A stretch of DNA of 63,467 nucleotides, the filler included, from Craspedostauros australis (Eukaryota), in the NCBI GenBank assembly GCA_030167865.1. It is 9 parts of 9 records of this genome, joined end to end, with 100 filler letters (N's around TTAATTAATTAA, not from the genome) between each part and the next. Parts side by side here need not be neighbours in the genome. Positions count along the whole stretch, not along the records: positions 42,719 to 48,114 come from JALAGF010003620.1; 8 more parts are not named here. One strand, written 5' to 3'. Within the stretch, counting starts at the first letter, position 1, and each line of letters opens with the position of its first letter. Below the pieces are notes generated by a model, which had not been told where the DNA came from, ran no database searches, and saw only the letters and a list, made by a program, of their open reading frames with translations. The position numbers and the translations under genes are program-made. This document shows positions 3,914-54,983 of the stretch, in pieces.

Positions 3914-4083
3914 ATTTGCTCAAAGGAAATCCAACAGCAACAACCTCCACCAAACAAAACGACGAAACAACGACAACAAACACAATCAAGAAACCAGACA
4001 CAAAACGTAAATTGAATAATCCCAACGAGTAACAACAAATCCTTTGTCCCACCCCAAGTACTGCTTTCGTGCAAGGTGTCTTC

Positions 4084-35400: not shown

Positions 35401-35586
35401 GGTCGTCGAGTGTGGCCAATGTCAGAACTCCTCGATGGTGTGGCATCGCATGGAGGAGTGCAAAACCCACCGACGATTTCTGACGACGAACACAAACTGC
35501 TGAAGTGCTTTCTGGCAGTCGATCGTTGGGATGCGGCGGATGCGGATCGACTTCGCCAGCTGATCGTGAGCAGCGCAGCGATCTGA
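32423..35586 (+). CDS. MSH5: MutS homolog 5 (meiotic crossover protein), 2 exons
   Basis: SKEG.SLFSLLDRT, TGPNFSGKS.Y.RQV, MAHIGSFIP, STFQLDL.Q, DEFGKGT, TTHF; no mismatch-binding domain I. Intron 34038-34297. Confidence 0.9.
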
Positions 35587-37584: not shown

Positions 37585-40051
37585 ACGCTGCATGAGTACT
37601 ACGACATGCGTACTGGCCGGTTTAAGCGAGCAGGCAACATTGTCTTCGATGAGGCGCATTTTTCGTCCCACGACAGGCCACCTGGCCCGCAGCTACTCTT
37701 CGATTTGGGTTTCGAGCAACCAAGTGCTGACGCACAACCTGATGCTGTCGTCACTGGCGCCGCTTATCCTCCGTCCCGGTCCAAGATTGCGAAAACACCG
37801 CCGATTGCGTGTCGCATCCCACTTCCTCTTGGTGATCTGGTTGACCGAGCTGCACAGCATGCTTCTGCTGCAATGTGTCAGACCACCCATGCAGCGCACA
37901 CGGTCGACATCGAAATGGCCGATGATCCTTTCGGGTACAGCTTCGATCAGGTGGTCGCAATCGCTGGCTCGGATGGCACGCTTGGGATGGAATTCACTCA
38001 CGATGCCCAGCGTGATCGTCTTGTGCTAGTGATGTGCAGGCCAGGACAACCGTCTGCTCGCATTCCGCGATGGCGGTCCCGGCTTCGACACTCACACCTC
38101 CTTGCGGTGGATGGTGTTGATGTGCACACACTGGCGCAGCTCAAGACGCGGATACAGCAGCTCCGTGATGCCAAGGCTACCAGTGCCACGTTCGTATTCG
38201 CATTCGATGATGTGCGCAACGCGATGTCTCAAACTGGCGTGCCCCAGATGTACTTCGATCAACTCAGGCATGTCCAGGACATCATTGAGTCAGCTCGTCC
38301 CACAGCTCACGCTACCAGCGTTGCGAGTGCCCCGACAAAGTTGACTCGGCGTACGCTTCGACAGCAGGATGACTGGCCCGAGTGGAGCGCCGCTGAAGAC
38401 AAGCAGCTTGATCAATACGATGCGCAGCAGATGTTTGGAGACCCTGTGCTACCACCGGCCGACGCTGCGGTGTTCAACTGGGTGTGGGTATACGTCGTCA
38501 AGACTCACGAAAACAATCGCAAGAAAGCTCGTGCTGTTTGTGATGGATCAACCCGTGGCGGACACGCTCGGATCTTTGGGCACACCTACGCTGCTACGCC
38601 GGATCTAACCGAGTTCCGTATTCTTCTGGCCATTGCGGCGATACAGGGTCTACGGGTATACGGCTCTGATGTCACCAATGCGTTCGCGGAGGCTCCTGCT
38701 GGAGAACAACGGTACTACATGAGGGTGGATGAGCAGTACCGCACTTGGTGGGAGAAGCGACGGGGCAAACTCATGCCACGAGGAGCCGTGATTCCAGTCC
38801 TCAAGAACCTTCAGGGACATCCCGAGGCGCCCCGACAGTGGAGCTGTCATGTCAATGGCCTTCTGAAGCGCATGGGTTTCCATGGTACCACGCATGCTCC
38901 CTGCCTTTACATGGGACGCGTCCTTTCTTCCAAGGTCTACGTGCTTCGACAAGTGGATGATTTCGCAGTTGCCGCCACCAACGAGGCCGTCTTCAGCGCG
39001 TTCTGCGACTTGTTGGACAAACATCTCTTCCAGCCCATGACGCGACAAGGCCTCATTGTTCATTACAATGGTTTGGACGTCGATCAGACCCAGGATTTCG
39101 TCAAGGTGCACTGCACTTCCTACATTGACAAGGTGCTGGAGCGGTACCAGTGGCAGAACTTCAAGACCACACAGCGGTTGCCCATGCGGTCCGACAATTC
39201 TTATGTCAAGAGTCTGGATAAGGCGGTGCTCCCAGTCGATGACGATGAGCGACTTCGTGTGGCAAGCCAGTTCAAGTTCGGGTACAGGCAGGCTATTGGC
39301 GAGCTGATATGGGCGATGATTTCATGTCGGCCTGACATTTCTTTCCCCGTCGTGAAGCTCTCGCAGTTCTCCGCCAACCCAGCTGCTCTACATTTTGAAG
39401 GGGTGAAGTATCTCATGCGGTATGTCGCTGGCACGCGCGACCACGGTGTCACCTACTGGAGGATACAGCCACTCATGAGTCTCCCCGCAGCACCCCGCCC
39501 AGTCCGCCTTTCGCCGACCGATGATGCCGTCCACGATGCCACCGGCATACAACATCTTGATGCCTCAACGTTGTACGGGTACACTGATGCGGATTGGGGC
39601 GTCGACATCCGACATCGACGGTCGGTCACAGGCATCATTTACATATTTGGTGGAGCTGCTGTGGCATGGAAAACCCGAGTTCAACCTACGGTCTCGCTCA
39701 GTAGCACTGAGGCCGAGTTCGTCGCAGCCAGCGACGCCGGCCGCATGGCCTTGTGGCTTCGATCCATTCTCGATGAAGTGGAGGTGAAGCAGCAGTATGC
39801 GACTATGATCTTCGAGGACAACCGCGGTGCTCGGCTGATGGCCAGCGCCAGTCAGCCTACCCGGAATTCGCGCCACATAGCGATCCGAGAGTTCGCGGTC
39901 CTCGATTGGGTGGAAAGAGATCTCCTGACATACCCAGAAGTCGCATCAGACCTGAATGCATCCGACATATGCACGAAACAGACACCTGTGGCTCTGTACT
40001 TTCGGCACATCGACCTTGTTATGGGTCGGCTTGTGCCCTTCTATGTACGCA
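37585..40051 (+). mobile_element. Ty1/Copia family A pol fragment (integrase tail, PDZ-like domain, RT, RNase H)
   Basis: KARAVCDG, SDVTNAF, LQGHPEAPRQW, RQVDDF, CRPDI, YTDADWG..RRSVTG, SLSSTEAEF, FEDN, NASDICTK. Confidence 0.95.
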
Positions 40052-40151
40052 NNNNNNNNNNNNNNNNNNNNNNNNNNNNNNNNNNNNNNNNNNNNTTAAT
40101 TAATTAANNNNNNNNNNNNNNNNNNNNNNNNNNNNNNNNNNNNNNNNNNNN

Positions 40152-42618
40152 ACGCTGCATGAGTACTACGACATGCGTACTGGCCGGTTTAAGCGAGCAG
40201 GCAACATTGTCTTCGATGAGGCGCATTTTTCGTCCCACGACAGGCCACCTGGCCCGCAGCTACTCTTCGATTTGGGTTTCGAGCAACCAAGTGCTGACGC
40301 ACAACCTGATGCTGTCGTCACTGGCGCCGCTTATCCTCCGTCCCGGTCCAAGATTGCGAAAACACCGCCGATTGCGTGTCGCATCCCACTTCCTCTTGGT
40401 GATCTGGTTGACCGAGCTGCACAGCATGCTTCTGCTGCAATGTGTCAGACCACCCATGCAGCGCACACGGTCGACATCGAAATGGCCGATGATCCTTTCG
40501 GGTACAGCTTCGATCAGGTGGTCGCAATCGCTGGCTCGGATGGCACGCTTGGGATGGAATTCACTCACGATGCCCAGCGTGATCGTCTTGTGCTAGTGAT
40601 GTGCAGGCCAGGACAACCGTCTGCTCGCATTCCGCGATGGCGGTCCCGGCTTCGACACTCACACCTCCTTGCGGTGGATGGTGTTGATGTGCACACACTG
40701 GCGCAGCTCAAGACGCGGATACAGCAGCTCCGTGATGCCAAGGCTACCAGTGCCACGTTCGTATTCGCATTCGATGATGTGCGCAACGCGATGTCTCAAA
40801 CTGGCGTGCCCCAGATGTACTTCGATCAACTCAGGCATGTCCAGGACATCATTGAGTCAGCTCGTCCCACAGCTCACGCTACCAGCGTTGCGAGTGCCCC
40901 GACAAAGTTGACTCGGCGTACGCTTCGACAGCAGGATGACTGGCCCGAGTGGAGCGCCGCTGAAGACAAGCAGCTTGATCAATACGATGCGCAGCAGATG
41001 TTTGGAGACCCTGTGCTACCACCGGCCGACGCTGCGGTGTTCAACTGGGTGTGGGTATACGTCGTCAAGACTCACGAAAACAATCGCAAGAAAGCTCGTG
41101 CTGTTTGTGATGGATCAACCCGTGGCGGACACGCTCGGATCTTTGGGCACACCTACGCTGCTACGCCGGATCTAACCGAGTTCCGTATTCTTCTGGCCAT
41201 TGCGGCGATACAGGGTCTACGGGTATACGGCTCTGATGTCACCAATGCGTTCGCGGAGGCTCCTGCTGGAGAACAACGGTACTACATGAGGGTGGATGAG
41301 CAGTACCGCACTTGGTGGGAGAAGCGACGGGGCAAACTCATGCCACGAGGAGCCGTGATTCCAGTCCTCAAGAACCTTCAGGGACATCCCGAGGCGCCCC
41401 GACAGTGGAGCTGTCATGTCAATGGCCTTCTGAAGCGCATGGGTTTCCATGGTACCACGCATGCTCCCTGCCTTTACATGGGACGCGTCCTTTCTTCCAA
41501 GGTCTACGTGCTTCGACAAGTGGATGATTTCGCAGTTGCCGCCACCAACGAGGCCGTCTTCAGCGCGTTCTGCGACTTGTTGGACAAACATCTCTTCCAG
41601 CCCATGACGCGACAAGGCCTCATTGTTCATTACAATGGTTTGGACGTCGATCAGACCCAGGATTTCGTCAAGGTGCACTGCACTTCCTACATTGACAAGG
41701 TGCTGGAGCGGTACCAGTGGCAGAACTTCAAGACCACACAGCGGTTGCCCATGCGGTCCGACAATTCTTATGTCAAGAGTCTGGATAAGGCGGTGCTCCC
41801 AGTCGATGACGATGAGCGACTTCGTGTGGCAAGCCAGTTCAAGTTCGGGTACAGGCAGGCTATTGGCGAGCTGATATGGGCGATGATTTCATGTCGGCCT
41901 GACATTTCTTTCCCCGTCGTGAAGCTCTCGCAGTTCTCCGCCAACCCAGCTGCTCTACATTTTGAAGGGGTGAAGTATCTCATGCGGTATGTCGCTGGCA
42001 CGCGCGACCACGGTGTCACCTACTGGAGGATACAGCCACTCATGAGTCTCCCCGCAGCACCCCGCCCAGTCCGCCTTTCGCCGACCGATGATGCCGTCCA
42101 CGATGCCACCGGCATACAACATCTTGATGCCTCAACGTTGTACGGGTACACTGATGCGGATTGGGGCGTCGACATCCGACATCGGCGGTCGGTCACAGGC
42201 ATCATTTACATATTTGGTGGAGCTGCTGTGGCATGGAAGACCCGAGTTCAACCTACGGTCTCGCTCAGTAGCACTGAGGCCGAATTCGTCGCAGCCAGCG
42301 ACGCCGGCCGCATGGCCTTGTGGCTTCGATCCATTCTCGATGAAGTGGGGGTGAAGCAGCAGTATGCGACTATGATCTTCGAGGACAACCGCGGTGCTCG
42401 GCTGATGGCCAGCGCCAGTCAGCCTACCCGGAATTCGCGCCACATAGCGATCCGAGAGTTCGCGGTCCTCGATTGGGTGGAAAGAGATCTCCTGACATAC
42501 CCAGAAGTCGCATCAGACCTGAATGCATCCGACATATGCACGAAACAGACACCTGTGGCTCTGTACTTTCGGCACATCGACCTTGTTATGGGTCGGCTTG
42601 TGCCCTTCTATGTACGCA
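40152..42618 (+). mobile_element. Ty1/Copia family A pol fragment, near-identical variant of 37585-40051
   Basis: Same start and end points; only a few A/G differences, in RNase H. Confidence 0.95.
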
Positions 42619-42718
42619 NNNNNNNNNNNNNNNNNNNNNNNNNNNNNNNNNNNNNNNNNNNNTTAATTAATTAANNNNNNNNNNNNNNNNNNNNNNNNNN
42701 NNNNNNNNNNNNNNNNNN

Positions 42719-45700
42719 CGATGTCGGATGTCGACGCCCCAATCCGCATCAGTGTACCCGTACAACGTTGAGGCATCAAGATGTTGTATGCCGGTGGCAT
42801 CGTGGACGGCATCATCGGTCGGCGAAAGGCGGACTGGGCGGGGTGCTGCGGGGAGACTCATGAGTGGCTGTATCCTCCAGTAGGTGACACCGTGGTCGCG
42901 CGTGCCAGCGACATACCGCATGAGATACTTCACCCCTTCAAAATGTAGAGCAGCTGGGTTGGCGGAGAACTGCGAGAGCTTCACGACGGGGAAAGAAATG
43001 TCAGGCCGACATGAAATCATCGCCCATATCAGCTCGCCAATAGCCTGCCTGTACCCGAACTTGAACTGGCTTGCCACACGAAGTCGCTCATCGTCATCGA
43101 CTGGGAGCACCGCCTTATCCAGACTCTTGACATAAGAATTGTCGGACCGCATGGGCAACCGCTGTGTGGTCTTGAAGTTCTGCCACTGGTACCGCTCCAG
43201 CACCTTGTCAATGTAGGAAGTGCAGTGCACCTTGACGAAATCCTGGGTCTGATCGACGTCCAAACCATTGTAATGAACAATGAGGCCTTGTCGCGTCATG
43301 GGCTGGAAGAGATGTTTGTCCAACAAGTCGCAGAACGCGCTGAAGACGGCCTCGTTGGTGGCGGCAACTGCGAAATCATCCACTTGTCGAAGCACGTAGA
43401 CCTTGGAAGAAAGGACGCGTCCCATGTAAAGGCAGGGAGCATGCGTGGTACCATGGAAACCCATGCGCTTCAGAAGGCCATTGACATGACAGCTCCACTG
43501 TCGGGGCGCCTCGGGATGTCCCTGAAGGTTCTTGAGGACTGGAATCACGGCTCCTCGTGGCATGAGTTTGCCCCGTCGCTTCTCCCACCAAGTGCGGTAC
43601 TGCTCATCCACCCTCATGTAGTACCGTTGTTCTCCAGCAGGAGCCTCCGCGAACGCATTGGTGACATCAGAGCCGTATACCCGTAGACCCTGTATCGCCG
43701 CAATGGCCAGAAGAATACGGAACTCGGTTAGATCCGGCGTAGCAGCGTAGGTGTGCCCAAAGATCCGAGCGTGTCCGCCACGGGTTGATCCATCACAAAC
43801 AGCACGAGCTTTCTTGCGATTGTTTTCGTGAGTCTTGACGACGTATACCCACACCCAGTTGAACACCGCAGCGTCGGCCGGTGGTAGCACAGGGTCTCCA
43901 AACATCTGCTGCGCATCGTATTGATCAAGCTGCTTGTCTTCAGCGGCGCTCCACTCGGGCCAGTCATCCTGCTGTCGAAGCGTACGCCGAGTCAACTTTG
44001 TCGGGGCACTCGCAACGCTGGTAGCGTGAGCTGTGGGACGAGCTGACTCAATGATGTCCTGGACATGCCTGAGTTGATCGAAGTACATCTGGGGCACGCC
44101 AGTTTGAGACATCGCGTTGCGCACATCATCGAATGCGAATACGAACGTGGCACTGGTAGCCTTGGCATCACGGAGCTGCTGTATCCGCGTCTTGAGCTGC
44201 GCCAGTGTGTGCACATCAACACCATCCACCGCAAGGAGGTGTGAGTGTCGAAGCCGGGACCGCCATCGCGGAATGCGAGCAGACGGTTGTCCTGGCCTGC
44301 ACATCACTAGCACAAGACGATCACGCTGGGCATCGTGAGTGAATTCCATCCCAAGCGTGCCATCCGAGCCAGCGATTGCGACCACCTGATCGAAGCTGTA
44401 CCCGAAAGGATCATCGGCCATTTCGATGTCGACCGTGTGCGCTGCATGGGTGGTCTGACACATTGCAGCAGAAGCATGCTGTGCAGCTCGGTCAACCAGA
44501 TCACCAAGAGGAAGTGGGATGCGACACGCAATCGGCGGTGTTTTCGCAATCTTGGACCGGGACGGAGGATAAGCGGCGCCAGTGACGACAGCATCAGGTT
44601 GTGCGTCAGCACTTGGTTGCTCGAAACCCAAATCGAAGAGTAGCTGCGGGCCAGGTGGCCTGTCGTGGGACGAAAAATGCGCCTCATCGAAGACAATGTT
44701 GCCTGCTCGCTTAAACCGGCCAGTACGCATGTCGTAGTACTCATGCAGCGTCGACGTAGCCGTGTGCCCGACAAAGATGCCATCGTAGGTATGCGCATCA
44801 AGCTTGGCGGCAGCCTTCCCCGGCTTCTTGACCGTGACTCGAGACCCGAACACACGCAGGTGCGACAGATCTGGAACAACCCCATGCTGGCGCTGATAAG
44901 GTGTCATGCGAATGCCTGAATGGTAGAGCCGATTCTTGATGTACACCGCATGTGCCAGAGCCTTCGACCAGAAGTGTGGCTGCATGCCAGACGAGTACAA
45001 CAGGGCGCGTACCATTGTGCCAAACGTCCTGTTGAGGCGCTCGACTTTGCCATTCATCCACGCACAGTCCGCGCCAGTGGGCTCCACAGTGTACCCGCAC
45101 TCGAATACCATCTCGCGAAACTGATCTGACCTTGCAAGTTCGCCGCCCAAGTCGACGCGCACGGCACGATAGCCGTCGGAGCGCCCAAAGGACGAAAGCA
45201 CATGCCGAACAGCCGCAAGTGGTGGCGACTTGTCCTTGGTCATGAAAACCCACACGTAAGCAGTGAAGGCATCCACAACGAGCAGATAAGCGCAGTATCC
45301 ATCGATGGACTTCACCACTCGTGGCGTATTGTGGCCTGACTTCCCGCGTCCATACGCAGCGTTCGTGGCTCGCATGAACCCGAAGTCAACATGGAACCTG
45401 GCACCGCGCACGTTGGCTGTGGTAGTATCGTTGGGCCCACGTGCCGCATGTTGGTATCCAGCCTGGCTGCACGCGTCGCAATGCCGCAATGGATGCACTC
45501 CGGCGACTGCCGCATCAGGAATGCCAGTGGCACACTTGGTCAGGTGTCGGAGCTGGCTCATGCCAACATGTCCCAGCCGAAGATGCCACAGCTCGGACAC
45601 AAGAGCCTTGGACGCCTTGCGGACGGAGAACACTTGGTGAGATGGTCCTTCGAAGTAATAGAGCCCGTTACGAACCACCAAAGGTATCTCCACACGGCCA

Positions 45701-46254
45701 GCCTCCGACGTGAACACGACTTTGGCACCGTGGGGTTCGGACTCGACGCAGAAGCCGTGAAAGTCATTGTCGGTTTGACGAACGACTGCTTGGGGTGATA
45801 TCAGGGTGTCCGCCAGGTGTGGGCAGTGCAGCATTCTCACGTCCACATGTACTCCATCAGAGCCATGCAGCCGCATGAATCCCGCACCTGGACATGCCAT
45901 GGCCGGAGCCGACGCATTGGCAGCTTCCAGCAACACTGGCGTCGCAAAAGTGCCGTATTCCCGCAGCAGTCGTAGGTGGGGCGTGGCGGAAACATTGGCC
46001 CCAGGGTCGCACTGGCCGTTGTCCTGACGCCGCCATGCACGTTGGCCACATGGCGAGGACACGACCGCAAAAACCTGGAGCTCGTCATGAGCCACAATGG
46101 GCACCAACTTGGATGGGCACCCGTGTTGGTAGGCTTGGGCAAGCGAAGACACCTCTCCACGTGGAGCGCCTACCGGTGTCTCGCATTCACCTGAAATTGC
46201 GCGTAGCTGTTCACCAGGGAGCGACGTTACTCCTGGCCAGCATGCACAAAATCC
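42719..46254 (-). CDS. pol: Copia family A Pol (-1 frame relative to gag; truncated by gap)
   Basis: PR QCDPGAN; LWHLRLGH..CDAC; integrase FHVDF, VVDAF, RVDLGGE, NGKVER; GIFVGH; RT RQVDD; RH YTDADW. Confidence 0.9.
46206..46254 (-). promoter_or_regulatory. Candidate -1 ribosomal frameshift signal (G_GAU_UUU plus downstream hairpin); copy at 51702-51750
   Basis: Gag codons CAG GAT TTT place the heptamer in slippery phase; the pol frame is open through it; stem GCUG/CCAGG..CCUGG/CAGC begins 6 nt downstream. Confidence 0.75.
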
Positions 46255-47933
46255 TGAAGGAGCATATTCGCAACGTGGGTCGCGATGTCCTCCTCGTCCA
46301 ACTCATCGACCGCCCCAAGGTCATCACTCGTCACCTGAAGGGCTCTTGCGAAGGCACGAGACTTGTCCTTGGTGTATGTATCCTTGAACTTCTCCAGCAC
46401 TGCTGATGCCAGGTCAGGCTTGGACTCACGGAGTTCAGCGAACGCCAGGTGCCGTGCCCAATTGAGACAGGAGGCAGCCTTGTGTCCACCACGGCGGCAA
46501 GCCTCGCAGAACGCGTCTTTATCAGGTTGATAAAACGCAGACCGCTTGCGCTCACCCTTGGGTCCACCACCACCGCCTTGTCGAGCAGATGAGCGGGTTT
46601 GAACACGGTGCCCAATGGGTCGATGAGCCGCGGTAGGGTCTGGGTGAATGGACCGAGCCAGTGCCGACACATGTAAGTGCGGTGGCACACGCTTGGACGC
46701 GGGCTGCAACTCCAGGGAAGTGATGAGGTGCCCTACGTCCATGCCATTCGAACGGAGATCCTCAAGAAACCGGCGAGTCAACTCGACATCGGTGAAATGC
46801 CGCTTGTGCACCACTGTCTCTGTCTGCTGGTATGCAAGCAGAGCATCTGCAAAGAGTACGATGTCCTTGTACTCCGAGTAAGTGGGTGCCTGGCTGACCG
46901 TGCGCTCAATTCGCTGGAACGCGTCGAGGAGCACCTGATGTAAGAGAAGATACCCAGAGAGCCGATGAGGAATGACCCCAAAACACGCAGTGTGGTACAT
47001 CTTCACAGACGGATTGTCAAGATCAAGGACGCCATCCTCCTGCAGCTTACGATTGAGCTGAACCCCGGACCGGTGTACGATGTCGCGCGGAGCATTCCTG
47101 GGAATGAGGGAGCACCTTGGGTTGAAATGCGAAAGGGGAACCAGGGCCACGCCAACACGATCTGCCTCACTCTGTAGGTGGGTGTACCACTTCATCACGT
47201 CGGCAGGATCATCGACAGACAACTGACTGGTCCACCGTTGCCAATAGCCCAACGCATCGCGATCGGGTTCGAGGGGAGACAGAATGGCGTCGTAGGTGAA
47301 GTGCGCGGTCGCGGCAGGGTTGCCATTGGCCACCGAGTACGGAAGGCCTGACCCAGTAATGTAGTCGTGCGACTCTCGTGGCTCACGCGCGGGCGCGGCA
47401 CCGGAGATGTCCAGCGGACTCTCAACGGTGGCACCTGGGGATTCACCAGGGGGCACGCGTACACCAGAACCATCCGCGGCAGGTCCATAGTGGCCAGCAG
47501 CGGTAGTGGTCACATCACTAGCAGCCAGAGCGCCTGTATCAGTGGGTGGAGACGGTGGTAGCACACTGGCACCTTCAGTAGGCGGAGGCGGCTTGAGGGA
47601 AAGGTTGACAGGAGTCGTCTTGCCGTCGCGCTTGAACTTGCGCAGGGTTTCGCGGTCAAGAGTGGTCACCCACGACTCGACGTCGGGATTGTCGCGATAA
47701 TACGCGCGGAGCTGGCGAAGACCAAACTCACGGGTTGGAGAGTTCTTTGCCCATGCGGCAAGAAACCCATCGAAGACGTCATCGTCCAACTCAAGGAAGT
47801 CCCAGAGGTCGAGGGTGTCTTGAATGTTAGCGCCAGTGACGAAGAGACCAGCCCAGTGCCAGTTGAGGCGGGCGAAGAGGTCCGAGAGACCTTTGAGTTC
47901 GTCAGAACTGAGAGGGTCGTTTTTGGCAGGCAT
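46227..47933 (-). CDS. gag: Copia family A Gag (568 aa)
   Basis: Zinc knuckle CEACRRGGHKAASC; lies between the PBS and pol. Confidence 0.88.
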   Translation of the reverse strand: MPAKNDPLSSDELKGLSDLFARLNWHWAGLFVTGANIQDTLDLWDFLELDDDVFDGFLAAWAKNSPTREFGLRQLRAYYRDNPDVESWVTTLDRETLRKFKRDGKTTPVNLSLKPPPPTEGASVLPPSPPTDTGALAASDVTTTAAGHYGPAADGSGVRVPPGESPGATVESPLDISGAAPAREPRESHDYITGSGLPYSVANGNPAATAHFTYDAILSPLEPDRDALGYWQRWTSQLSVDDPADVMKWYTHLQSEADRVGVALVPLSHFNPRCSLIPRNAPRDIVHRSGVQLNRKLQEDGVLDLDNPSVKMYHTACFGVIPHRLSGYLLLHQVLLDAFQRIERTVSQAPTYSEYKDIVLFADALLAYQQTETVVHKRHFTDVELTRRFLEDLRSNGMDVGHLITSLELQPASKRVPPHLHVSALARSIHPDPTAAHRPIGHRVQTRSSARQGGGGGPKGERKRSAFYQPDKDAFCEACRRGGHKAASCLNWARHLAFAELRESKPDLASAVLEKFKDTYTKDKSRAFARALQVTSDDLGAVDELDEEDIATHVANMLLQDFVHAGQE

Positions 47934-48058
47934 GATGGGGCAAAAGTGGAACGGGTGTAGAGAGCGAGGGAAGGAGCGAGAAAGGAAGCTGCGCGGATGG
48001 GTATTTCCAGTAACAGCAGAGGGTACAGAGTAGCAGGATTAGCACTAAAGCTTATTTC

Positions 48059-48067
48059 CTCATAACC
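48059..48067 (-). promoter_or_regulatory. Primer-binding site GGTTATGAG (half-tRNA-iMet type); copy at 53555-53563
   Basis: Immediately follows the LTR-like ..ACA end; complementary to the CUCAUAACC anticodon arm of initiator tRNA-Met. Confidence 0.7.
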
Positions 48068-48214
48068 TGTGATGATCGGGAGACGATACGGGATGTGTTG
48101 TGTGTGTGATGATGNNNNNNNNNNNNNNNNNNNNNNNNNNNNNNNNNNNNNNNNNNNNTTAATTAATTAANNNNNNNNNNNNNNNNNNNNNNNNNNNNNN
48201 NNNNNNNNNNNNNN

Positions 48215-51200
48215 CGATGTCGGATGTCGACGCCCCAATCCGCATCAGTGTACCCGTACAACGTTGAGGCATCAAGATGTTGTATGCCGGTGGCATCGTG
48301 GACGGCATCATCGGTCGGCGAAAGGCGGACTGGGCGGGGTGCTGCGGGGAGACTCATGAGTGGCTGTATCCTCCAGTAGGTGACACCGTGGTCGCGCGTG
48401 CCAGCGACATACCGCATGAGATACTTCACCCCTTCAAAATGTAGAGCAGCTGGGTTGGCGGAGAACTGCGAGAGCTTCACGACGGGGAAAGAAATGTCAG
48501 GCCGACATGAAATCATCGCCCATATCAGCTCGCCAATAGCCTGCCTGTACCCGAACTTGAACTGGCTTGCCACACGAAGTCGCTCATCGTCATCGACTGG
48601 GAGCACCGCCTTATCCAGACTCTTGACATAAGAATTGTCGGACCGCATGGGCAACCGCTGTGTGGTCTTGAAGTTCTGCCACTGGTACCGCTCCAGCACC
48701 TTGTCAATGTAGGAAGTGCAGTGCACCTTGACGAAATCCTGGGTCTGATCGACGTCCAAACCATTGTAATGAACAATGAGGCCTTGTCGCGTCATGGGCT
48801 GGAAGAGATGTTTGTCCAACAAGTCGCAGAACGCGCTGAAGACGGCCTCGTTGGTGGCGGCAACTGCGAAATCATCCACTTGTCGAAGCACGTAGACCTT
48901 GGAAGAAAGGACGCGTCCCATGTAAAGGCAGGGAGCATGCGTGGTACCATGGAAACCCATGCGCTTCAGAAGGCCATTGACATGACAGCTCCACTGTCGG
49001 GGCGCCTCGGGATGTCCCTGAAGGTTCTTGAGGACTGGAATCACGGCTCCTCGTGGCATGAGTTTGCCCCGTCGCTTCTCCCACCAAGTGCGGTACTGCT
49101 CATCCACCCTCATGTAGTACCGTTGTTCTCCAGCAGGAGCCTCCGCGAACGCATTGGTGACATCAGAGCCGTATACCCGTAGACCCTGTATCGCCGCAAT
49201 GGCCAGAAGAATACGGAACTCGGTTAGATCCGGCGTAGCAGCGTAGGTGTGCCCAAAGATCCGAGCGTGTCCGCCACGGGTTGATCCATCACAAACAGCA
49301 CGAGCTTTCTTGCGATTGTTTTCGTGAGTCTTGACGACGTATACCCACACCCAGTTGAACACCGCAGCGTCGGCCGGTGGTAGCACAGGGTCTCCAAACA
49401 TCTGCTGCGCATCGTATTGATCAAGCTGCTTGTCTTCAGCGGCGCTCCACTCGGGCCAGTCATCCTGCTGTCGAAGCGTACGCCGAGTCAACTTTGTCGG
49501 GGCACTCGCAACGCTGGTAGCGTGAGCTGTGGGACGAGCTGACTCAATGATGTCCTGGACATGCCTGAGTTGATCGAAGTACATCTGGGGCACGCCAGTT
49601 TGAGACATCGCGTTGCGCACATCATCGAATGCGAATACGAACGTGGCACTGGTAGCCTTGGCATCACGGAGCTGCTGTATCCGCGTCTTGAGCTGCGCCA
49701 GTGTGTGCACATCAACACCATCCACCGCAAGGAGGTGTGAGTGTCGAAGCCGGGACCGCCATCGCGGAATGCGAGCAGACGGTTGTCCTGGCCTGCACAT
49801 CACTAGCACAAGACGATCACGCTGGGCATCGTGAGTGAATTCCATCCCAAGCGTGCCATCCGAGCCAGCGATTGCGACCACCTGATCGAAGCTGTACCCG
49901 AAAGGATCATCGGCCATTTCGATGTCGACCGTGTGCGCTGCATGGGTGGTCTGACACATTGCAGCAGAAGCATGCTGTGCAGCTCGGTCAACCAGATCAC
50001 CAAGAGGAAGTGGGATGCGACACGCAATCGGCGGTGTTTTCGCAATCTTGGACCGGGACGGAGGATAAGCGGCGCCAGTGACGACAGCATCAGGTTGTGC
50101 GTCAGCACTTGGTTGCTCGAAACCCAAATCGAAGAGTAGCTGCGGGCCAGGTGGCCTGTCGTGGGACGAAAAATGCGCCTCATCGAAGACAATGTTGCCT
50201 GCTCGCTTAAACCGGCCAGTACGCATGTCGTAGTACTCATGCAGCGTTGATGTAGCTGTGTGCCCGACAAAGATGCCATCGTAGGTATGCGCATCAAGCT
50301 TGGCGGCGGCCTTTCCCGGCTTCTTGACCGTGACTCGAGACCCGAACACACGCAGGTGCGACAGATCTGGAACAACCCCATGCTGGCACTGATAAGGTGT
50401 CATGCGAATGCCTGAATGGTAGAGCCGATTCTTGATGTACACCGCATGTGCCAGAGCCTTCGACCAGAAGTGCGGCTGCATGCCAGACGAGTACAACAGG
50501 GCGCGTACCATCGTGCCAAACGTCCTGTTGAGGCGCTCGACTTTGCCATTCATCCACGCACAGTCTGTGCCAGTGGGCTCCACAGTGTATCCGCACTCGA
50601 ATACCATCTCGCGAAATTGATCTGACCTTGCAAGTTCGCCGCCCAAGTCGACGCGCACGGCACGATAGCCGTCGGAGCGCCCAAAGGACGAAAGCACATG
50701 CCGAACAGCCGCAAGTGGTGGCGACTTGTCCTTGGTCATGAAAACCCACACGTAAGCAGTGAAGGCATCCACAACGAGCAGATAAGCGCAGTATCCATCG
50801 ATGGACTTCACCACTCGTGGCGTATTGTGGCCTGACTTCCCGCGTCCATACGCAGCGTTCGTGGCTCGCATGAACCCGAAGTCAACATGGAACCTGGCAC
50901 CGCGCACGTTGGCTGTGGTAGTATCGTTGGGCCCACGTGCCGCATGTTGGTATCCAGCCTGGCTGCACGCGTCGCAATGCCGCAATGGATGCACTCCGGC
51001 GACTGCCGCATCAGGAATGCCAGTGGCACACTTGGTCAGGTGTCGGAGCTGGCTCATGCCAACATGTCCCAGCCGAAGATGCCACAGCTCGGACACAAGA
51101 GCCTTGGACGCCTTGCGGACGGAGAACACTTGGTGAGATGGTCCTTCGAAGTAATAGAGCCCGTTACGAACCACCAAAGGTATCTCCACACGGCCAGCCT

Positions 51201-51750
51201 CCGACGTGAACACGACTTTGGCACCGTGGGGTTCGGACTCGACGCAGAAGCCGTGAAAGTCATTGTCGGTTTGACGAACGACTGCTTGGGGTGATATCAG
51301 GGTGTCCGCCAGGTGTGGGCAGTGCAGCATTCTCACGTCCACATGTACTCCATCAGAGCCATGCAGCCGCATGAATCCCGCACCTGGACATGCCATGGCC
51401 GGAGCCGACGCATTGGCAGCTTCCAGCAACACTGGCGTCGCAAAAGTGCCGTATTCCCGCAGCAGTCGTAGGTGGGGCGTGGCGGAAACATTGGCCCCAG
51501 GGTCGCACTGGCCGTTGTCCTGACGCCGCCATGCACGTTGGCCACATGGCGAGGACACGACCGCAAAAACCTGGAGCTCGTCATGAGCCACAATGGGCAC
51601 CAACTTGGATGGGCACCCGTGTTGGTAGGCTTGGGCAAGCGAAGACACCTCTCCACGTGGAGCGCCTACCGGTGTCTCGCATTCACCTGAAATTGCGCGT
51701 AGCTGTTCACCAGGGAGCGACGTTACTCCTGGCCAGCATGCACAAAATCC
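48215..51750 (-). CDS. pol: Copia family A Pol (second copy, truncated by gap)
   Basis: Same motifs as 42719-46254. Confidence 0.9.
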
Positions 51751-53429
51751 TGAAGGAGCATATTCGCAACGTGGGTCGCGATGTCCTCCTCGTCCAACTC
51801 ATCGACCGCCCCAAGGTCATCACTCGTCACCTGAAGGGCTCTTGCGAAGGCACGAGACTTGTCCTTGGTGTATGTATCCTTGAACTTCTCCAGCACTGCT
51901 GATGCCAGGTCAGGCTTGGACTCACGGAGTTCAGCGAACGCCAGGTGCCGTGCCCAATTGAGACAGGAGGCAGCCTTGTGTCCACCACGGCGGCAAGCCT
52001 CGCAGAACGCGTCTTTATCAGGTTGATAAAACGCAGACCGCTTGCGCTCACCCTTGGGTCCACCACCACCGCCTTGTCGAGCAGATGAGCGGGTTTGAAC
52101 ACGGTGCCCAATGGGTCGATGAGCCGCGGTAGGGTCTGGGTGAATGGACCGAGCCAGTGCCGACACATGTAAGTGCGGTGGCACACGCTTGGACGCGGGC
52201 TGCAACTCCAGGGAAGTGATGAGGTGCCCTACGTCCATGCCATTCGAACGGAGATCCTCAAGAAACCGGCGAGTCAACTCGACATCGGTGAAATGCCGCT
52301 TGTGCACCACTGTCTCTGTCTGCTGGTATGCAAGCAGAGCATCTGCAAAGAGTACGATGTCCTTGTACTCCGAGTAAGTGGGTGCCTGGCTGACCGTGCG
52401 CTCAATTCGCTGGAACGCGTCGAGGAGCACCTGATGTAAGAGAAGATACCCAGAGAGCCGATGAGGAATGACCCCAAAACACGCAGTGTGGTACATCTTC
52501 ACAGACGGATTGTCAAGATCAAGGACGCCATCCTCCTGCAGCTTACGATTGAGCTGAACCCCGGACCGGTGTACGATGTCGCGCGGAGCATTCCTGGGAA
52601 TGAGGGAGCACCTTGGGTTGAAATGCGAAAGGGGAACCAGGGCCACGCCAACACGATCTGCCTCACTCTGTAGGTGGGTGTACCACTTCATCACGTCGGC
52701 AGGATCATCGACAGACAACTGACTGGTCCACCGTTGCCAATAGCCCAACGCATCGCGATCGGGTTCGAGGGGAGACAGAATGGCGTCGTAGGTGAAGTGC
52801 GCGGTCGCGGCAGGGTTGCCATTGGCCACCGAGTACGGAAGGCCTGACCCAGTAATGTAGTCGTGCGACTCTCGTGGCTCACGCGCGGGCGCGGCACCGG
52901 AGATGTCCAGCGGACTCTCAACGGTGGCACCTGGGGATTCACCAGGGGGCACGCGTACACCAGAACCATCCGCGGCAGGTCCATAGTGGCCAGCAGCGGT
53001 AGTGGTCACATCACTAGCAGCCAGAGCGCCTGTATCAGTGGGTGGAGACGGTGGTAGCACACTGGCACCTTCAGTAGGCGGAGGCGGCTTGAGGGAAAGG
53101 TTGACAGGAGTCGTCTTGCCGTCGCGCTTGAACTTGCGCAGGGTTTCGCGGTCAAGAGTGGTCACCCACGACTCGACGTCGGGATTGTCGCGATAATACG
53201 CGCGGAGCTGGCGAAGACCAAACTCACGGGTTGGAGAGTTCTTTGCCCATGCGGCAAGAAACCCATCGAAGACGTCATCGTCCAACTCAAGGAAGTCCCA
53301 GAGGTCGAGGGTGTCTTGAATGTTAGCGCCAGTGACGAAGAGACCAGCCCAGTGCCAGTTGAGGCGGGCGAAGAGGTCCGAGAGACCTTTGAGTTCGTCA
53401 GAACTGAGAGGGTCGTTTTTGGCAGGCAT
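51723..53429 (-). CDS. gag: Copia family A Gag (second copy)
   Basis: Translation identical to 46227-47933. Confidence 0.88.
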   Translation of the reverse strand: MPAKNDPLSSDELKGLSDLFARLNWHWAGLFVTGANIQDTLDLWDFLELDDDVFDGFLAAWAKNSPTREFGLRQLRAYYRDNPDVESWVTTLDRETLRKFKRDGKTTPVNLSLKPPPPTEGASVLPPSPPTDTGALAASDVTTTAAGHYGPAADGSGVRVPPGESPGATVESPLDISGAAPAREPRESHDYITGSGLPYSVANGNPAATAHFTYDAILSPLEPDRDALGYWQRWTSQLSVDDPADVMKWYTHLQSEADRVGVALVPLSHFNPRCSLIPRNAPRDIVHRSGVQLNRKLQEDGVLDLDNPSVKMYHTACFGVIPHRLSGYLLLHQVLLDAFQRIERTVSQAPTYSEYKDIVLFADALLAYQQTETVVHKRHFTDVELTRRFLEDLRSNGMDVGHLITSLELQPASKRVPPHLHVSALARSIHPDPTAAHRPIGHRVQTRSSARQGGGGGPKGERKRSAFYQPDKDAFCEACRRGGHKAASCLNWARHLAFAELRESKPDLASAVLEKFKDTYTKDKSRAFARALQVTSDDLGAVDELDEEDIATHVANMLLQDFVHAGQE

Positions 53430-53710
53430 GATGGGGCAAAAGTGGAACGGGTGTAGAGAGCGAGGGAAGGAGCGAGAAAGGAAGCTGCGCGGATGGGTAT
53501 TTCCAGTAACAGCAGAGGGTACAGAGTAGCAGGATTAGCACTAAAGCTTATTTCCTCATAACCTGTGATGATCGGGAGACGATACGGGATGTGTTGTGTG
53601 TGTGATGATGNNNNNNNNNNNNNNNNNNNNNNNNNNNNNNNNNNNNNNNNNNNNTTAATTAATTAANNNNNNNNNNNNNNNNNNNNNNNNNNNNNNNNNN
53701 NNNNNNNNNN

Positions 53711-54886
53711 GGGCTTGCAGTATTCCAAGGATGTGAGAACCATATCCGCCCTGTCATTGTTTCCAGAGCTATTTTTGTTCTCCGATGAAGGCTTGTTGTT
53801 GGCAGTGATTCGACCCTCAGAGACATGACGTTTCTTCAACCGACATTCCGCCTCCATGTGGCCAAACTTGCCGCAGTACGTGCAGCGTTCTCCATTTCCG
53901 CTGTTACCATTGTTGCCGTTTCCGTTGCCCTTGCCGTTGCTGTTTCCTTTGCCTCTCTTCTTTCCAGTCTTCTTGCCTTTGCCTCCTTTCTTGCCGTTTG
54001 GACAGTCGGCTCCCTTGTGTCCATACTCGTTGCACTTGCGGCATCGTCCCTTGAATCCACCCATAGTGGCGTGGGCATGGTCAGCCTTGCTTGAGTTGTC
54101 TTCCACATCCAAAACATATGCCTTTTGGTTGGTTTGGCGCATCCATGTCAAGTTTGTCACTTCCCTGACAGTGGAGATCGCGACCGAAGAGGCGTTCATT
54201 CGCATCTGTTGCTCGATCAAAAGGATGTCTTGAGAGTACTCATTCGACATCGTTGCCAAAACATGAAGTATGAATTCTTCATCCGTCATTGTGAGCCCCA
54301 CTTCCGACATGCAAAGTCGTAAGAGCTCTAGCTTGGTGATGTAGAGGTCCGGATCAGCGTTCTTTCCCATTTTCTCATTGTTGAATTGGTACTTTAGCTT
54401 GATCTTTGTGGACGTGTTGGTCGGCTTGTATTTTTCTTCGAGGGCTTTCCAAGCAGAGCGAGCATCTCCGTACGGGTATTCATGACTCTCGTACTTTTGG
54501 ATCATTACCAGCACAGCCTTTCCTGCAGCTGTCTCATTATCCATCATCAACACAAGATCTGCAAAGGCTTGCTTGTTCCTTGCTTGGATCTTGGCTTGTT
54601 TGTCTGCCTCAGCTGCTGGAACCGCACTGAGCTTCGACACTGGTAGAGTTTCCTCATTTCCCTTGTAAACATCACTGGTATTTCGCAGCACCGAGAATGC
54701 CTTCGCCATCAAAATCCATGATGCATATCCCTCCCGGGATCCGTCGAACTTGGGTCCGCGTTTGAAGGTGGCGGTGCGATCGTCGTCACTCATCGTGATC
54801 GGAACAGTTGTTGGCTTGCCTGCCTTTTCCAACAGTTCGATGTCTTCCGATTTGACGGGGTCTGGTCGTAGTTCTGTACCTGACAT
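53711..54886 (-). CDS. gag: Copia family B Gag (start of gag-pol, cut by gap)
   Basis: PKFDG..Y..W, AWKALEEKY, DPDLYITKLE; two knuckles CRKCNEYGHKGADC and CTYCGKFGHMEAEC. Confidence 0.9.
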
Positions 54887-54983
54887 GCACTAATCACACA
54901 GAGTTCCGAGTTTAACGTTTCGAAACGTGTTAGAAACCCTATGATCTTAGCCAAGGCAGAATGCCAGAGTTTGTGCAGCAACC

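What the first reader, a model, noticed from the sequence alone, without database searches (positions are those of the whole stretch)
44131..44394. PDZ-like domain embedded in a Copia Pol between integrase and reverse transcriptase
Seen: all four family A contigs (also 37942-38205, 40509-40772, 49627-49890) encode FDQVVAIAGSDGTLGMEFTHDAQRDRLVLVMCRPGQPSARIPRWRSRLRHSHLLAVDGVDVHTLAQLKTRIQQLRDAKATSATFVF after the integrase C-terminal region. Known: PDZ domains show a G-L-G-hydrophobic carboxylate-binding loop, then V..V.PG.PA, L..GD.ILAVNG..V, a helix and a final strand, and this segment follows that order. Copia elements usually have a variable linker here, and integrase-appended domains such as the chromovirus chromodomain direct target choice. 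Inference: the element may use a peptide-binding module to tether integrase to a host protein or to organise the particle. I cannot tell whether this is already described for diatom CoDi elements.
Basis: partly seen in the sequence, partly recalled or inferred. Interest (0 to 1): 0.8.

Follow-up and report, generated by a model that had tools for sequence, protein, structure and literature searches.

The report
PDZ-fold domain inside diatom Copia Pol
A retrotransposon of the diatom Copia type carries a conserved, well-folded PDZ-like protein-binding domain just in front of its reverse transcriptase, which appears not to have been described before and whose partner is still unknown.

Summary
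On the minus strand, 44131-44394 encodes the quoted peptide inside a Ty1/Copia Pol ORF, between the integrase SH3-like domain and RVT_2. The four "copies" are identical at nucleotide level and lie on overlapping, near-identical assembly fragments, so they are not independent evidence.

Independent evidence comes from relatives. A local HMM of the segment hit all 120 listed Pol relatives. A PDZ-only profile found 834 cluster representatives. Every hit with recognisable context was Copia Pol. dN/dS was 0.12-0.22.

AlphaFold2 gives a confident model with canonical PDZ topology (pLDDT above 93 over residues 9-96, repeated). All listed Foldseek hits and all top 50 VIA-align entries are PDZ domains, Z up to 11.4. 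Sequence similarity to PDZ families stays below threshold.

The loop glycine is invariant, and a W-R-[ST]-R-L-R motif is nearly so. The domain always sits nearer RT. In a sister clade a dUTPase lies between integrase and the domain. So the PDZ fold is supported, but the integrase-tether function is untested and less favoured than an RT-side adaptor role. I found no prior description in the papers searched.

The parts
44122..44409 (-). PDZ-fold domain (96 aa, Pol residues 582-677).
   Evidence: Translation. AF2 models. Foldseek and VIA. PDZ-only HMM hit at 44125-44409, E 4.2e-34.
44347..44358 (-). T-L-G-M, the x-hydrophobic-G-hydrophobic loop before strand 2, at the position of the PDZ carboxylate-binding loop. 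The Gly is invariant in the family.
   Evidence: translation. G in 121 of 121 domains, T 0.74, H three residues upstream 0.74.
44248..44268 (-). R-W-R-S-R-L-R basic motif between helix 1 and strand 4. It is the most conserved stretch of the domain.
   Evidence: W 0.99, R/K 0.98 and 0.99 at two positions; motif variants.
44068..44100 (-). Conserved post-domain motif G-V-P-Q-M-Y-F-D-Q-L-R, the start of a helix that is modelled more confidently when RT is present.
   Evidence: identity 0.58. pLDDT about 50 alone against 74-77 with RT.
37927..38211 (+). Same PDZ-fold domain on an overlapping assembly fragment.
40494..40778 (+). Same PDZ-fold domain on a near-identical fragment.
49621..49905 (-). 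Same PDZ-fold domain on the near-identical 5396-nt contig.
42667..46302 (-). Pol ORF (PR-IN-PDZ-RT, RNase H cut off by the contig end), stop-to-stop.
44674..44883 (-). Integrase C-terminal SH3-like domain (Pol residues 424-493).
   Evidence: Pfam PF25597, E 4e-13..
45460..45666 (-). gag_pre-integrase domain (Pol residues 163-231).
   Evidence: Pfam PF13976, E 4.3e-07..
43168..43881 (-). Reverse transcriptase RVT_2 (Pol residues 758-995).
   Evidence: Pfam PF07727, E 7.9e-16..
46227..47933 (-). gag ORF (568 aa) with a CCHC-like knuckle. It overlaps the pol frame by 76 nt in another frame.

Best explanation
The segment is a genuine, independently folding PDZ-fold domain of about 90 aa. It is a fixed part of Pol in a large clade of diatom-type (CoDi-like) Ty1/Copia retrotransposons. 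It is not a variable linker. It sits on the RT side of the polyprotein, in the order PR - IN - long variable spacer (in a sister clade holding a dUTPase) - PDZ - short partly conserved connector - RT - RNase H. Shown: the fold, its family-wide presence, purifying selection, its fixed position, and conservation of the loop at the position of the PDZ carboxylate-binding loop and of a basic W-R-[ST]-R-L-R face. Inferred: it works as a protein/peptide-binding adaptor that holds RT (or the Pol precursor) to a partner inside the particle or reverse-transcription complex. A plausible partner is a C-terminal tail created by protease processing of Gag, PR or IN. The basic face possibly adds contact to nucleic acid. 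In this reading it is the folded counterpart of the disordered segment upstream of Ty1 RT, which is needed for RT activity. Fold-level claim about 0.9. The specific RT-side adaptor mechanism is about 0.45.
For: Fold: the AF2 model of the 123-aa segment with an 89-row alignment has mean pLDDT 84.6, blocks covering residues 11-90 at 93-97, and elements E9-15, E25-30, E35-41, H46-49, H53-56, E61-65, H73-85, E90-96. The same elements appear in the 503-aa PDZ+RT model, mean pLDDT 89.7. Foldseek against PDB gave 25 hits at E<=0.001, and all listed rows are PDZ domains, best E 1.8e-4. VIA-align against 48,161 chains gave 90 at Z>=8, and all top 50 entries are PDZ domains, Z 9.0-11.4, for example 3gge_A at Z 11.4, rmsd 2.6 A over 93 residues. 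Sequence echoes: PDZ_6 matched in 13 of 37 family segments, best E 4.9e-4, with PDZ_2 in 2 and PDZ_Tricorn in 2. A profile against PDB sequences gave 24 matches at E<=10, and 23 of them are PDZ domains or PDZ-bearing proteins by name or recall, best E 0.044. The ESM Atlas nearest named clusters are PDZ families, scores 0.89-0.94. Family-wide presence: the segment HMM hit 120 of 120 listed Pol relatives, E 1e-15 to 1e-55. The PDZ-only profile found 834 representatives at E<=1e-3 and 346 at E<=1e-10. Of the 44 listed hits of 300 aa or more, 35 carry Copia Pol families, 8 carry none, 1 has only a sub-threshold DUF hit, and none has another context. Named members are diatoms: Thalassiosira, Cyclotella, Chaetoceros. 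Selection: dN/dS was 0.12, 0.18, 0.22 and 0.22 for the four locus pairs with dS of about 1 or less. Domain identity among 19 close Pols is 0.39, against 0.28 and 0.31 in the flanking linkers. Conserved functional-looking residues: loop Gly 121 of 121, W 0.99, basic residues 0.98-0.99, acidic residue 0.77 at the first helix-2 position. RT-side placement: the order IN<PDZ<RT held in 147 of 147 proteins, with IN-PDZ spacer 69-265 aa (median 126) and PDZ-RT spacer 32-97 aa (median 61). The dUTPase lies upstream of the domain in 26 of 26 dUTPase-bearing hits. The post-domain helix rises from pLDDT about 50 to 74-77 when RT is present. Precedent: in Ty1 the last 115 residues of IN, just upstream of RT, are important for reverse transcription in vivo and critical for recombinant RT activity (passages of PMC8487063).
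Against: No binding partner is identified and no binding was tested. The window's own copy has no Pfam family at E<=10, and no family member reaches a PDZ gathering score. Homology to cellular PDZ domains therefore rests mainly on predicted structure. The Pol C-termini of the relatives show no conserved PDZ-ligand-like tail. Protease cleavage sites are unknown, so the mature protein that carries the domain (IN, RT or a free protein) is not established. The connector at model residues 100-107 stays below pLDDT 50 in both models, and pTM 0.74 of the two-domain model does not show a fixed PDZ-RT arrangement. The strongest conservation lies in the basic motif, not in the canonical groove (strand 2 and helix 2 are moderately variable). 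That fits a non-canonical binding mode equally well. The PDZ-only profile was built from the window and 17 metagenome loci enriched for the dUTPase clade, so the top 150 hits are biased to that clade.
Confidence: 0.45

Rival explanations
1. One reading: the PDZ domain is an integrase-appended targeting module. It stays on mature integrase and binds the C-terminal tail of a host chromatin or transcription-machinery protein, steering integration as the chromovirus chromodomain or the Ty1 targeting domain do.
For: The domain lies downstream of integrase in the Copia order PR-IN-RT. In Ty1 the NLS and the targeting domain sit at the extreme C-terminus of IN, just upstream of RT (PMC8487063 passages). 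The PDZ fold with an invariant loop Gly suits binding of a protein tail. Llorens 2009 already proposed a chromatin-reading module at the IN C-terminus of CoDi-A elements.
Against: The spacer to IN is long and variable, while the connector to RT is shorter and partly conserved, in 147 of 147 proteins. In 26 of 26 dUTPase-bearing relatives a whole enzyme lies between IN and the domain. Cleavage sites are unknown. No insertion-site data are available.
Confidence: 0.2
2. The domain keeps the PDZ fold but does not use the peptide groove. It is an N-terminal extension of RT whose conserved basic W-R-[ST]-R-L-R face binds nucleic acid (template-primer or genomic RNA) or acidic lipids, or it merely stabilises RT.
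For: The basic motif is the most conserved part of the domain: W 0.99, two basic positions 0.98-0.99. The domain is always RT-proximal. Strand 2 and helix 2 residues vary more than the basic motif. Some PDZ domains bind phosphoinositides through basic patches (recalled, not checked here).
Against: The loop Gly is invariant, and the H-x-T-x-G-hydrophobic loop and an acidic first helix-2 residue are conserved. That would be unexpected if the groove were unused. The basic residues partly lie in a short helix that may be structural. No nucleic-acid-binding test was possible.
Confidence: 0.2
3. The domain regulates polyprotein processing, sensing or presenting cleavage-generated termini to the element's aspartic protease, by analogy with PDZ domains of HtrA/DegP and site-2 proteases.
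For: The best sequence-level echoes are PDZ domains of DegP/DegQ/HtrA and site-2 proteases, but all are above E 0.04.
Against: These echoes are not significant. Structural neighbours are the canonical, non-permuted adaptor-type PDZ domains. The protease lies about 400 residues upstream with integrase in between. No such regulation is known to me for retropepsins (recall).
Confidence: 0.05
4. It is not a PDZ domain: either the 'putative chromodomain' reported for CoDi-A integrases, or a linker whose PDZ-like pattern and model are artefacts.
For: No Pfam family at E<=10 for the window's copy. Llorens 2009 reports a chromodomain-like module at the IN C-terminus of CoDi-A, and its alignment could not be read.
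Against: Two AF2 runs give the same high-confidence PDZ topology. Two independent structure aligners return only PDZ domains at the top. None of 37 segments matched a Chromo family at E<=10, while 13 matched PDZ_6. The segment is conserved under purifying selection in hundreds of elements.
Confidence: 0.03

Closest known systems
Canonical (non-permuted) PDZ adaptor domains, e.g. GIPC2 PDZ (3gge), MUPP1 PDZ11 (2qg1), PSD-95 PDZ3 (1bfe)
   Same: Same predicted fold and element order. Z 9.0-11.4 with rmsd about 2-3 A over 80-93 residues. Foldseek probability 1.00. An x-hydrophobic-G-hydrophobic loop before strand 2, a G-x-P-A turn into helix 1 and an L-L-x-V-[DN]-G-x-x-V strand 4-5 pattern.
   Different: Sequence identity is only 8-24%. 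No member reaches a Pfam PDZ gathering score. The usual G-D turn is replaced by a conserved W-R-[ST]-R-L-R basic motif with a two-residue longer helix-1 region (my reading against the recalled PSD-95 PDZ3 pattern). It is embedded in a retrotransposon polyprotein, and no ligand is known.
Chromodomain of Ty3/Gypsy chromoviruses and the 'putative chromodomain' of CoDi-A Copia integrases (Llorens et al. 2009, PMC2774666)
   Same: A small cellular-type interaction module captured into Pol near the integrase C-terminus of an LTR retrotransposon, here also in diatom Copia elements (passages).
   Different: A different fold. No Chromo family match at E<=10 in 37 segments, and no chromodomain among the top 50 structural neighbours. 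Whether the CoDi-A module is the same stretch could not be checked, because the supplementary alignment is an image.
Ty1 integrase C-terminal region (Nguyen et al. 2021, PMC8487063)
   Same: Same place in a Ty1/Copia Pol, between the folded integrase half and RT. It carries functions beyond catalysis: a requirement for RT activity, an NLS and a targeting domain (passages).
   Different: In Ty1 the last 260 residues of IN are intrinsically disordered. Here a confidently folded PDZ domain occupies part of that interval.
dUTPase and other accessory domains inserted in retroelement Pol proteins
   Same: A lineage-specific extra domain inside Pol. In the sister clade of this family the two co-occur as IN-dUTPase-PDZ-RT.
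   Different: dUTPase is an enzyme with an evident role in nucleotide hygiene. The PDZ domain is a binding module with an unknown partner.

Membership tests
PDZ domain superfamily | Six strands and two helices in the canonical order b1-b2-b3-a1-b4-b5-a2-b6 | tested here: met
   DSSP of the AF2 models gives E9-15, E25-30, E35-41, H46-49 (+53-56), E61-65, (E68-69), H73-85, E90-96, with pLDDT 93-97 over residues 11-90. The 503-aa model gives the same elements. This is a prediction, not an experiment.
PDZ domain superfamily | Structural superposition on solved PDZ domains over most of the domain, well above unrelated folds | tested here: met
   All top 50 VIA-align entries are PDZ domains, Z 9.0-11.4, 78-102 residues aligned, from 48,161 chains. 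All listed Foldseek rows are PDZ domains, best E 1.8e-4, target-normalised TM up to 0.71.
PDZ domain superfamily | Carboxylate-binding loop of the type x-hydrophobic-G-hydrophobic before strand 2 (motif definition recalled) | tested here: met
   T-L-G-M in the window. Across 121 domains: G 1.00, preceding A/L 0.87, following L/M/F 0.94, T 0.74. The first Gly of the classical G-L-G-F is Thr here.
PDZ domain superfamily | Score at or above the gathering threshold of a Pfam PDZ model (PF00595, PF17820, PF13180) | tested here: not met
   The window segment has 0 families at E<=1 and at E<=10. Relatives: PDZ_6 in 13 of 37, best E 4.9e-4, and PDZ_2 in 2 of 37. The precomputed Pfam lists of 120 Pol relatives show no PDZ family.
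PDZ domain superfamily | Binds C-terminal or internal peptide ligands in the strand-2/helix-2 groove | not testable with these tools
   No ligand is known. Pol C-termini of the relatives show no conserved tail.
Ty1/Copia (Pseudoviridae-type) LTR retrotransposon | Pol domain order PR-IN-RT-RH with an RVT_2-type RT and gag upstream | tested here: met
   gag_pre-integrs, SH3_retrovirus and RVT_2 occur in that order. The gag ORF overlaps pol in another frame. The RNase H part is seen on the overlapping contig. LTRs are not on these contigs.
CoDi lineages of diatoms (Maumus 2009) | RT-based phylogenetic placement within CoDi1-7 / CoDiI-II | not tested
   No reference CoDi sequences were at hand. 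Relatives that carry names are diatoms: Thalassiosira oceanica, T. profunda, Thalassiosira sp., Cyclotella meneghiniana, Chaetoceros dichaeta.
Chromodomain (as in chromoviruses, proposed for CoDi-A) | Match to a chromodomain sequence profile | tested here: not met
   No Chromo family among the 19 Pfam families matched at E<=10 by any of 37 segments. None at E<=1 in the whole Pol.
Chromodomain (as in chromoviruses, proposed for CoDi-A) | Three-stranded sheet plus C-terminal helix fold | tested here: inconclusive
   No chromodomain among the 50 rows shown by VIA-align. Absence from a list does not exclude a fold.
Integrase-borne targeting domains (Ty1 TD, chromovirus chromodomain) | Located on mature integrase, at its C-terminal end | not testable with these tools
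   Cleavage sites are unknown. Indirect evidence points to the RT side.

The most novel reading that the evidence does not exclude
A whole clade of diatom Copia retrotransposons has captured a canonical PDZ adaptor domain and uses it to bind the C-terminal tail of a specific host protein. This would give these elements a programmable tether that decides where cDNA is made or integrated. It would be a new class of retrotransposon-host docking module, distinct from chromodomains and from the Ty1/Ty5 peptide motifs, and it could explain insertion preferences of the elements reported as the most abundant transposable elements in the two diatom genomes of Maumus 2009.
Probability: 0.2. Interest if true: 0.8.

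Novelty: new variant of a known kind. Interest (0 to 1): 0.6.

Why it matters
Maumus 2009 found LTR retrotransposons, mostly Copia-type CoDi elements, to be the most abundant transposable elements in two diatom genomes, and found some to be stress-activated (abstract and sections 6-7 of PMC2806351). How they choose partners and targets is unknown.

A conserved PDZ-fold module under purifying selection in hundreds of Pol variants gives a concrete, mutable handle. It can be expressed alone, screened against peptide libraries or diatom lysates, and mutated at an invariant Gly or at the basic motif.

It also changes the picture of the IN-RT interval of Ty1/Copia elements. That interval is disordered in Ty1 but holds one or two folded accessory domains (dUTPase, PDZ) in this lineage. 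The domain is also missed by Pfam-based TE annotation, so a dedicated profile would improve annotation of diatom and marine metagenome Copia elements.

Tried and rejected
- **Word-indexed search with the segment alone (Pol residues 570-690):** 293 candidates, none at E<=0.01. The relatives were then found through the whole Pol.
- **The genome search 'own':** no genome is held for this window.
- **The search for related loci with the 37-row alignment:** With the single segment, 592 pattern matches but no tblastn relative. With a 6-row close alignment, 34 loci.
- **Complex prediction, RT (residues 700-1080) against the PDZ domain (582-677):** no verdict. Scores were 0.24 and 0.01 against a mark of 0.34. 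The alignment was not used and the controls were not run. I draw nothing from it. Three earlier hand-ins met a full queue.
- **The look-up of sequencing runs for 42719-48114:** none was listed, and no RNA holder was listed. Read laying was therefore not used, and expression is untested.
- **A conserved PDZ-ligand-like C-terminus of Pol:** the ORF ends of 120 relatives are heterogeneous.
- **BFVD viral structure library:** 0 hits at E<=0.001. The best were giant-virus PDZ proteins, and there was no retroelement Pol.
- **The two-domain AF2 model:** pTM 0.74, with the connector below pLDDT 50, so it does not decide whether the domain docks on RT.
- **Earlier findings of this scan:** nothing shown by sequence or by words.
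- **Literature searches for a prior description:**
  - PDZ+Copia+integrase+retrotransposon: 2 papers, judged unrelated from title and abstract start.
  - PDZ+LTR retrotransposon+polyprotein: 1 paper, judged unrelated from title and abstract start.
  - PDZ-like+retrotransposon: 2 papers, judged unrelated from title and abstract start.
  - PDZ+'Ty1 copia': 0 papers.
  - dUTPase+Copia+diatom: only Llorens 2009, whose dUTPase passages concern other elements.
  - Term look-ups found 0 occurrences of 'PDZ' in Maumus 2009, in Llorens 2009 and in the 2025 diatom TE preprint.
- **Supplement AF2A of Llorens 2009:** holds its alignment as a picture, so the reported CoDi-A 'chromodomain' could not be compared. 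bioRxiv supplements are closed.
Full report
**1. Observation**

The + strand of 44131-44394 is full of stops. It is residues 586-673 of a Pol ORF at 42667-46152 (minus strand, 1161 aa from the first GTG). The ORF is open stop-to-stop up to 46302 and is cut at its 3' end by a contig-end N run.

Pfam finds gag_pre-integrs at residues 163-231, the retroviral-type integrase SH3-like domain at 424-493 and RVT_2 at 758-995. The segment is therefore in the IN-RT interval of a Ty1/Copia Pol. A 568-aa gag ORF with a CCHC-like knuckle lies upstream (46227-47933, minus strand). It overlaps the pol frame by 76 nt in another frame.

The window is a chain of contigs joined by N44-TTAATTAATTAA-N44 spacers. 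The four "family A" segments have no nucleotide difference in any of the 6 pairwise comparisons. The two 2467-nt contigs differ at 4 sites and the two 5396-nt contigs at 12 sites. The short contigs overlap the long ones over 2033 nt without a difference. The four copies are assembly redundancy of one or two nearly identical elements. They carry no information on conservation.

**2. Conservation in other elements**

- A word-indexed search with the segment alone found nothing.
- A search with Pol residues 150-1140 found 298 proteins at E<=1e-10. Eighteen were at 44-51% identity and the rest of the 120 listed at about 32-40% (one 755-aa fragment at 54%). Named ones include Thalassiosira oceanica, T. 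profunda and Cyclotella meneghiniana.
- In the alignment of the 18 closest relatives the segment aligns almost without gaps and has a clear consensus.
- A local HMM of Pol residues 578-700 hit all 120 listed relatives, E 1e-15 to 1e-55.
- Mean pairwise identity among the 19 close Pols is 0.39 for the domain. It is 0.28 and 0.31 for the two flanking linkers, and 0.56-0.59 for the IN core, the IN SH3 domain and RT. A short motif just after the domain (G-[LV]-P-Q-[LM]-Y-F-D-Q-L-R) stands at 0.58.
- A metagenome scan gave 34 loci. Eighteen carry an intact full domain, one an intact partial domain, and 15 have stops or frameshifts.
- Nei-Gojobori dN/dS on the domain was 0.12, 0.18, 0.22 and 0.22 for the four locus pairs with dS of about 1 or less. 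More diverged pairs are saturated.
- A PDZ-only profile was built from the window and 17 loci. L003 was dropped as identical to L002, and L020 as partial. Run against 1.84 billion cluster representatives, it found 834 at E<=1e-3, 346 at E<=1e-10 and 2 at E<=1e-30.
- I scanned the 44 of the 150 listed hits that are 300 aa or longer. Thirty-five carry Copia Pol families (dUTPase in 26, SH3_retrovirus, RVT_2, gag_pre-integrs, rve). Eight carry none. One has only a sub-threshold DUF hit. None shows a non-Copia context.
- A further word-indexed search with the profile among longer proteins gave 37 hits. These include a Chaetoceros dichaeta transcript and a Thalassiosira sp. protein.

The domain is conserved.

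**3. Fold**

AlphaFold2 on the 123-aa segment with an 89-row alignment gave mean pLDDT 84.6, with blocks of 93-97 over residues 11-90. The elements are E9-15, E25-30, E35-41, H46-49, H53-56, E61-65, H73-85 and E90-96. This is the canonical, non-permuted PDZ order. A second model of 503 aa (domain plus RT) reproduced the same elements at mean pLDDT 89.7.

Foldseek against the PDB returned 25 hits at E<=0.001. Every listed row is a PDZ domain, best E 1.8e-4, probability 1.00, target-normalised TM up to 0.71. VIA-align does not depend on Foldseek. It aligned the model to 48,161 representative chains. Ninety reached Z>=8, and all top 50 entries are PDZ domains, Z 9.0-11.4. The best is GIPC2 PDZ 3gge_A at Z 11.4, rmsd 2.6 A over 93 of 95 residues. 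That is above the tool's stated background of Z 7-8 for models without a clear match.

At sequence level the relationship is only echoed:
- The window's copy matches no Pfam family at E<=10.
- Thirteen of 37 diverse family segments match PDZ_6 (best E 4.9e-4), 2 match PDZ_2 and 2 match PDZ_Tricorn. None matches a Chromo family.
- The 37-row profile against PDB sequences gave 24 matches at E<=10, best 0.044. Twenty-three of them are PDZ domains or PDZ-bearing proteases by their names or my recall.
- The ESM Atlas feature search placed the segment next to PDZ clusters, scores 0.89-0.94.

The 37 rows are the window plus 36 of 41 representatives at under 50% identity. Five were dropped because their cuts were out of register.

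The fold is supported.

**4. Anatomy of the domain**

Across 121 domains:
- The loop glycine before strand 2 is invariant (T-L-G-M in the window, T-[AL]-G-[LMF] in the family). A His three residues upstream and the Thr are each at 0.74.
- The G-x-P-A turn into helix 1 has Pro at 0.88.
- The stretch I-P-R-W-R-[ST]-R-L-R is the most conserved part. W is at 0.99, and two basic positions are at 0.98-0.99.
- The first helix-2 position is acidic in 0.77.

By comparison with the recalled PSD-95 PDZ3 pattern, the basic stretch replaces the usual L-x-x-G-D turn before strand 4. Both the canonical ligand loop and a family-specific basic face are therefore under constraint.

**5. Position in Pol**

In 147 proteins that contain the IN SH3 block, the domain and the RT N-terminal block, the order IN<PDZ<RT holds in 147 of 147. 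The IN-PDZ spacer is 69-265 aa (median 126). The PDZ-RT spacer is 32-97 aa (median 61).

In the sister clade the architecture is IN SH3 - dUTPase - PDZ - RVT_2. In P0126, for example, these lie at 424-495, 532-660, 681-781 and 901-1126. The dUTPase precedes the domain in 26 of 26 dUTPase-bearing hits.

The helix that begins in the post-domain motif has pLDDT about 50 when modelled alone and 74-77 when RT is present. The connector at model residues 100-107 stays below 50. This suggests a PDZ bead on a short flexible tether attached to the RT body.

**6. Mechanism**

- **Shown:** fold, conservation, purifying selection, placement, and conserved loop and basic face.
- **Inferred:** the domain is a binding module on the RT side.

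In Ty1, the best-studied Ty1/Copia element, the 260 residues upstream of RT are disordered. Their last 115 residues are important for reverse transcription in vivo and critical for recombinant RT activity. The NLS and the Pol III targeting domain lie at the extreme C-terminus of IN (passages of PMC8487063). The same interval therefore serves both RT support and targeting in Ty1. Both roles are open here.

The placement data favour an RT-side adaptor that couples RT, or the precursor, to another particle component. My estimate is 0.45. A groove-independent nucleic-acid, lipid or structural role through the basic face gets 0.2. A processing-regulator role gets 0.05. 'Not a PDZ domain' gets 0.03.

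Against my reading:
- No partner is identified.
- The ORF ends of the relatives show no conserved PDZ-ligand tail.
- Cleavage sites are unknown.
- The strongest conservation is outside the groove.
- pTM 0.74 does not show docking on RT.

**7. Comparison with what is known, and novelty**

The domain resembles canonical adaptor PDZ domains in fold and loop motif. It fails the Pfam membership thresholds, so I file it as PDZ-fold or PDZ-like, probably a very divergent PDZ.

Accessory modules in LTR-retrotransposon Pols are known, for example the chromodomain in chromoviruses and dUTPase. Llorens 2009 reported a 'putative chromodomain' at the IN C-terminus of CoDi-A elements (passages). Its alignment is stored as an image and could not be compared. 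No Chromo signal exists in this family's segment.

Searches for a prior description of a PDZ domain in Copia or LTR elements returned only papers judged unrelated from their titles and abstract starts, or none. Term look-ups found no 'PDZ' in Maumus 2009, in Llorens 2009 or in a 2025 diatom TE preprint. The library lacks most subscription journals, so 'not in print' is limited to these searches. The BFVD viral structure library holds no retroelement protein with this fold at E<=0.001.

I rate it a new variant of a known kind: a known fold and a known habit of domain capture, in a combination I did not find described. It is family-wide in a major group of diatom transposons.

**8. Verdict**

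- The PDZ-fold interpretation is supported.
- The functional interpretation is open and probably needs shifting from integrase to the RT side.
- Interest is 0.6.

Noticed in passing
Relatives P0126, P0140, P0143, P0162, P0196 and others; loci such as L005, L011: A sister clade of these Copia elements carries a dUTPase (PF00692) inside Pol between the integrase SH3-like domain and the PDZ-fold domain. It was present in 26 of the 44 longer profile hits. A search for dUTPase+Copia+diatom found only Llorens 2009, whose dUTPase passages concern other elements.
   Followed up: partly
window 37585-42618 and 42719-53610: All 16 differences between the near-identical contig pairs (4 and 12 sites) are transitions, mostly G/A. 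The 12 in the long pair cluster within about 370 nt (offsets 2993-3362 of the reverse-complemented contig). This could reflect allelic or copy variants, or deamination-type mutation of a methylated element.
   Followed up: no
P0125 (Chaetoceros dichaeta transcript, 347 aa): It holds two nearly identical tandem copies of the PDZ-fold domain with their upstream linker (residues 109-199 and 248-338). This is either a real duplication or a transcriptome assembly artefact.
   Followed up: partly
window 46227-46302 (-): The gag stop and the open pol frame overlap by 76 nt in different frames, as expected for frameshift-dependent Gag-Pol expression. No slippery site was looked for.
   Followed up: no
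window 60252-63467 (+) and 53663-54889 (-): A second, different Copia family with Retrotran_gag_2, zf-CCHC, Pol_BBD and SH3_retrovirus. The gag-pol ORF runs off the window about 89 aa after the integrase SH3 domain. It has no PDZ-profile hit in what is present, so whether it has the domain cannot be told.
   Followed up: partly
window 13349-16870 (-): A 1173-aa open frame with no Pfam family at E<=0.001.
   Followed up: no
window 1-1908 (-), 4033-7319 (+), 21437-22921 (-), 32420-35586 (+): Host-type genes and another transposon on the other contigs: a MULE/Mutator transposase, a heavy-metal P-type ATPase split over two frames, a class-V aminotransferase (NifS-like) and a MutS homologue split over two frames. 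The splits are probably introns.
   Followed up: no
L008, L019, L021, L024, L025, L027-L029, L033, L034: Many metagenome copies of the domain are decayed, with TAG, TGA or TAA stops. Three loci (L008, L021, L029) have the stop directly before the conserved Trp of the basic motif, L024 has it at the Trp codon itself, and L019 has it just after the motif.
   Followed up: partly
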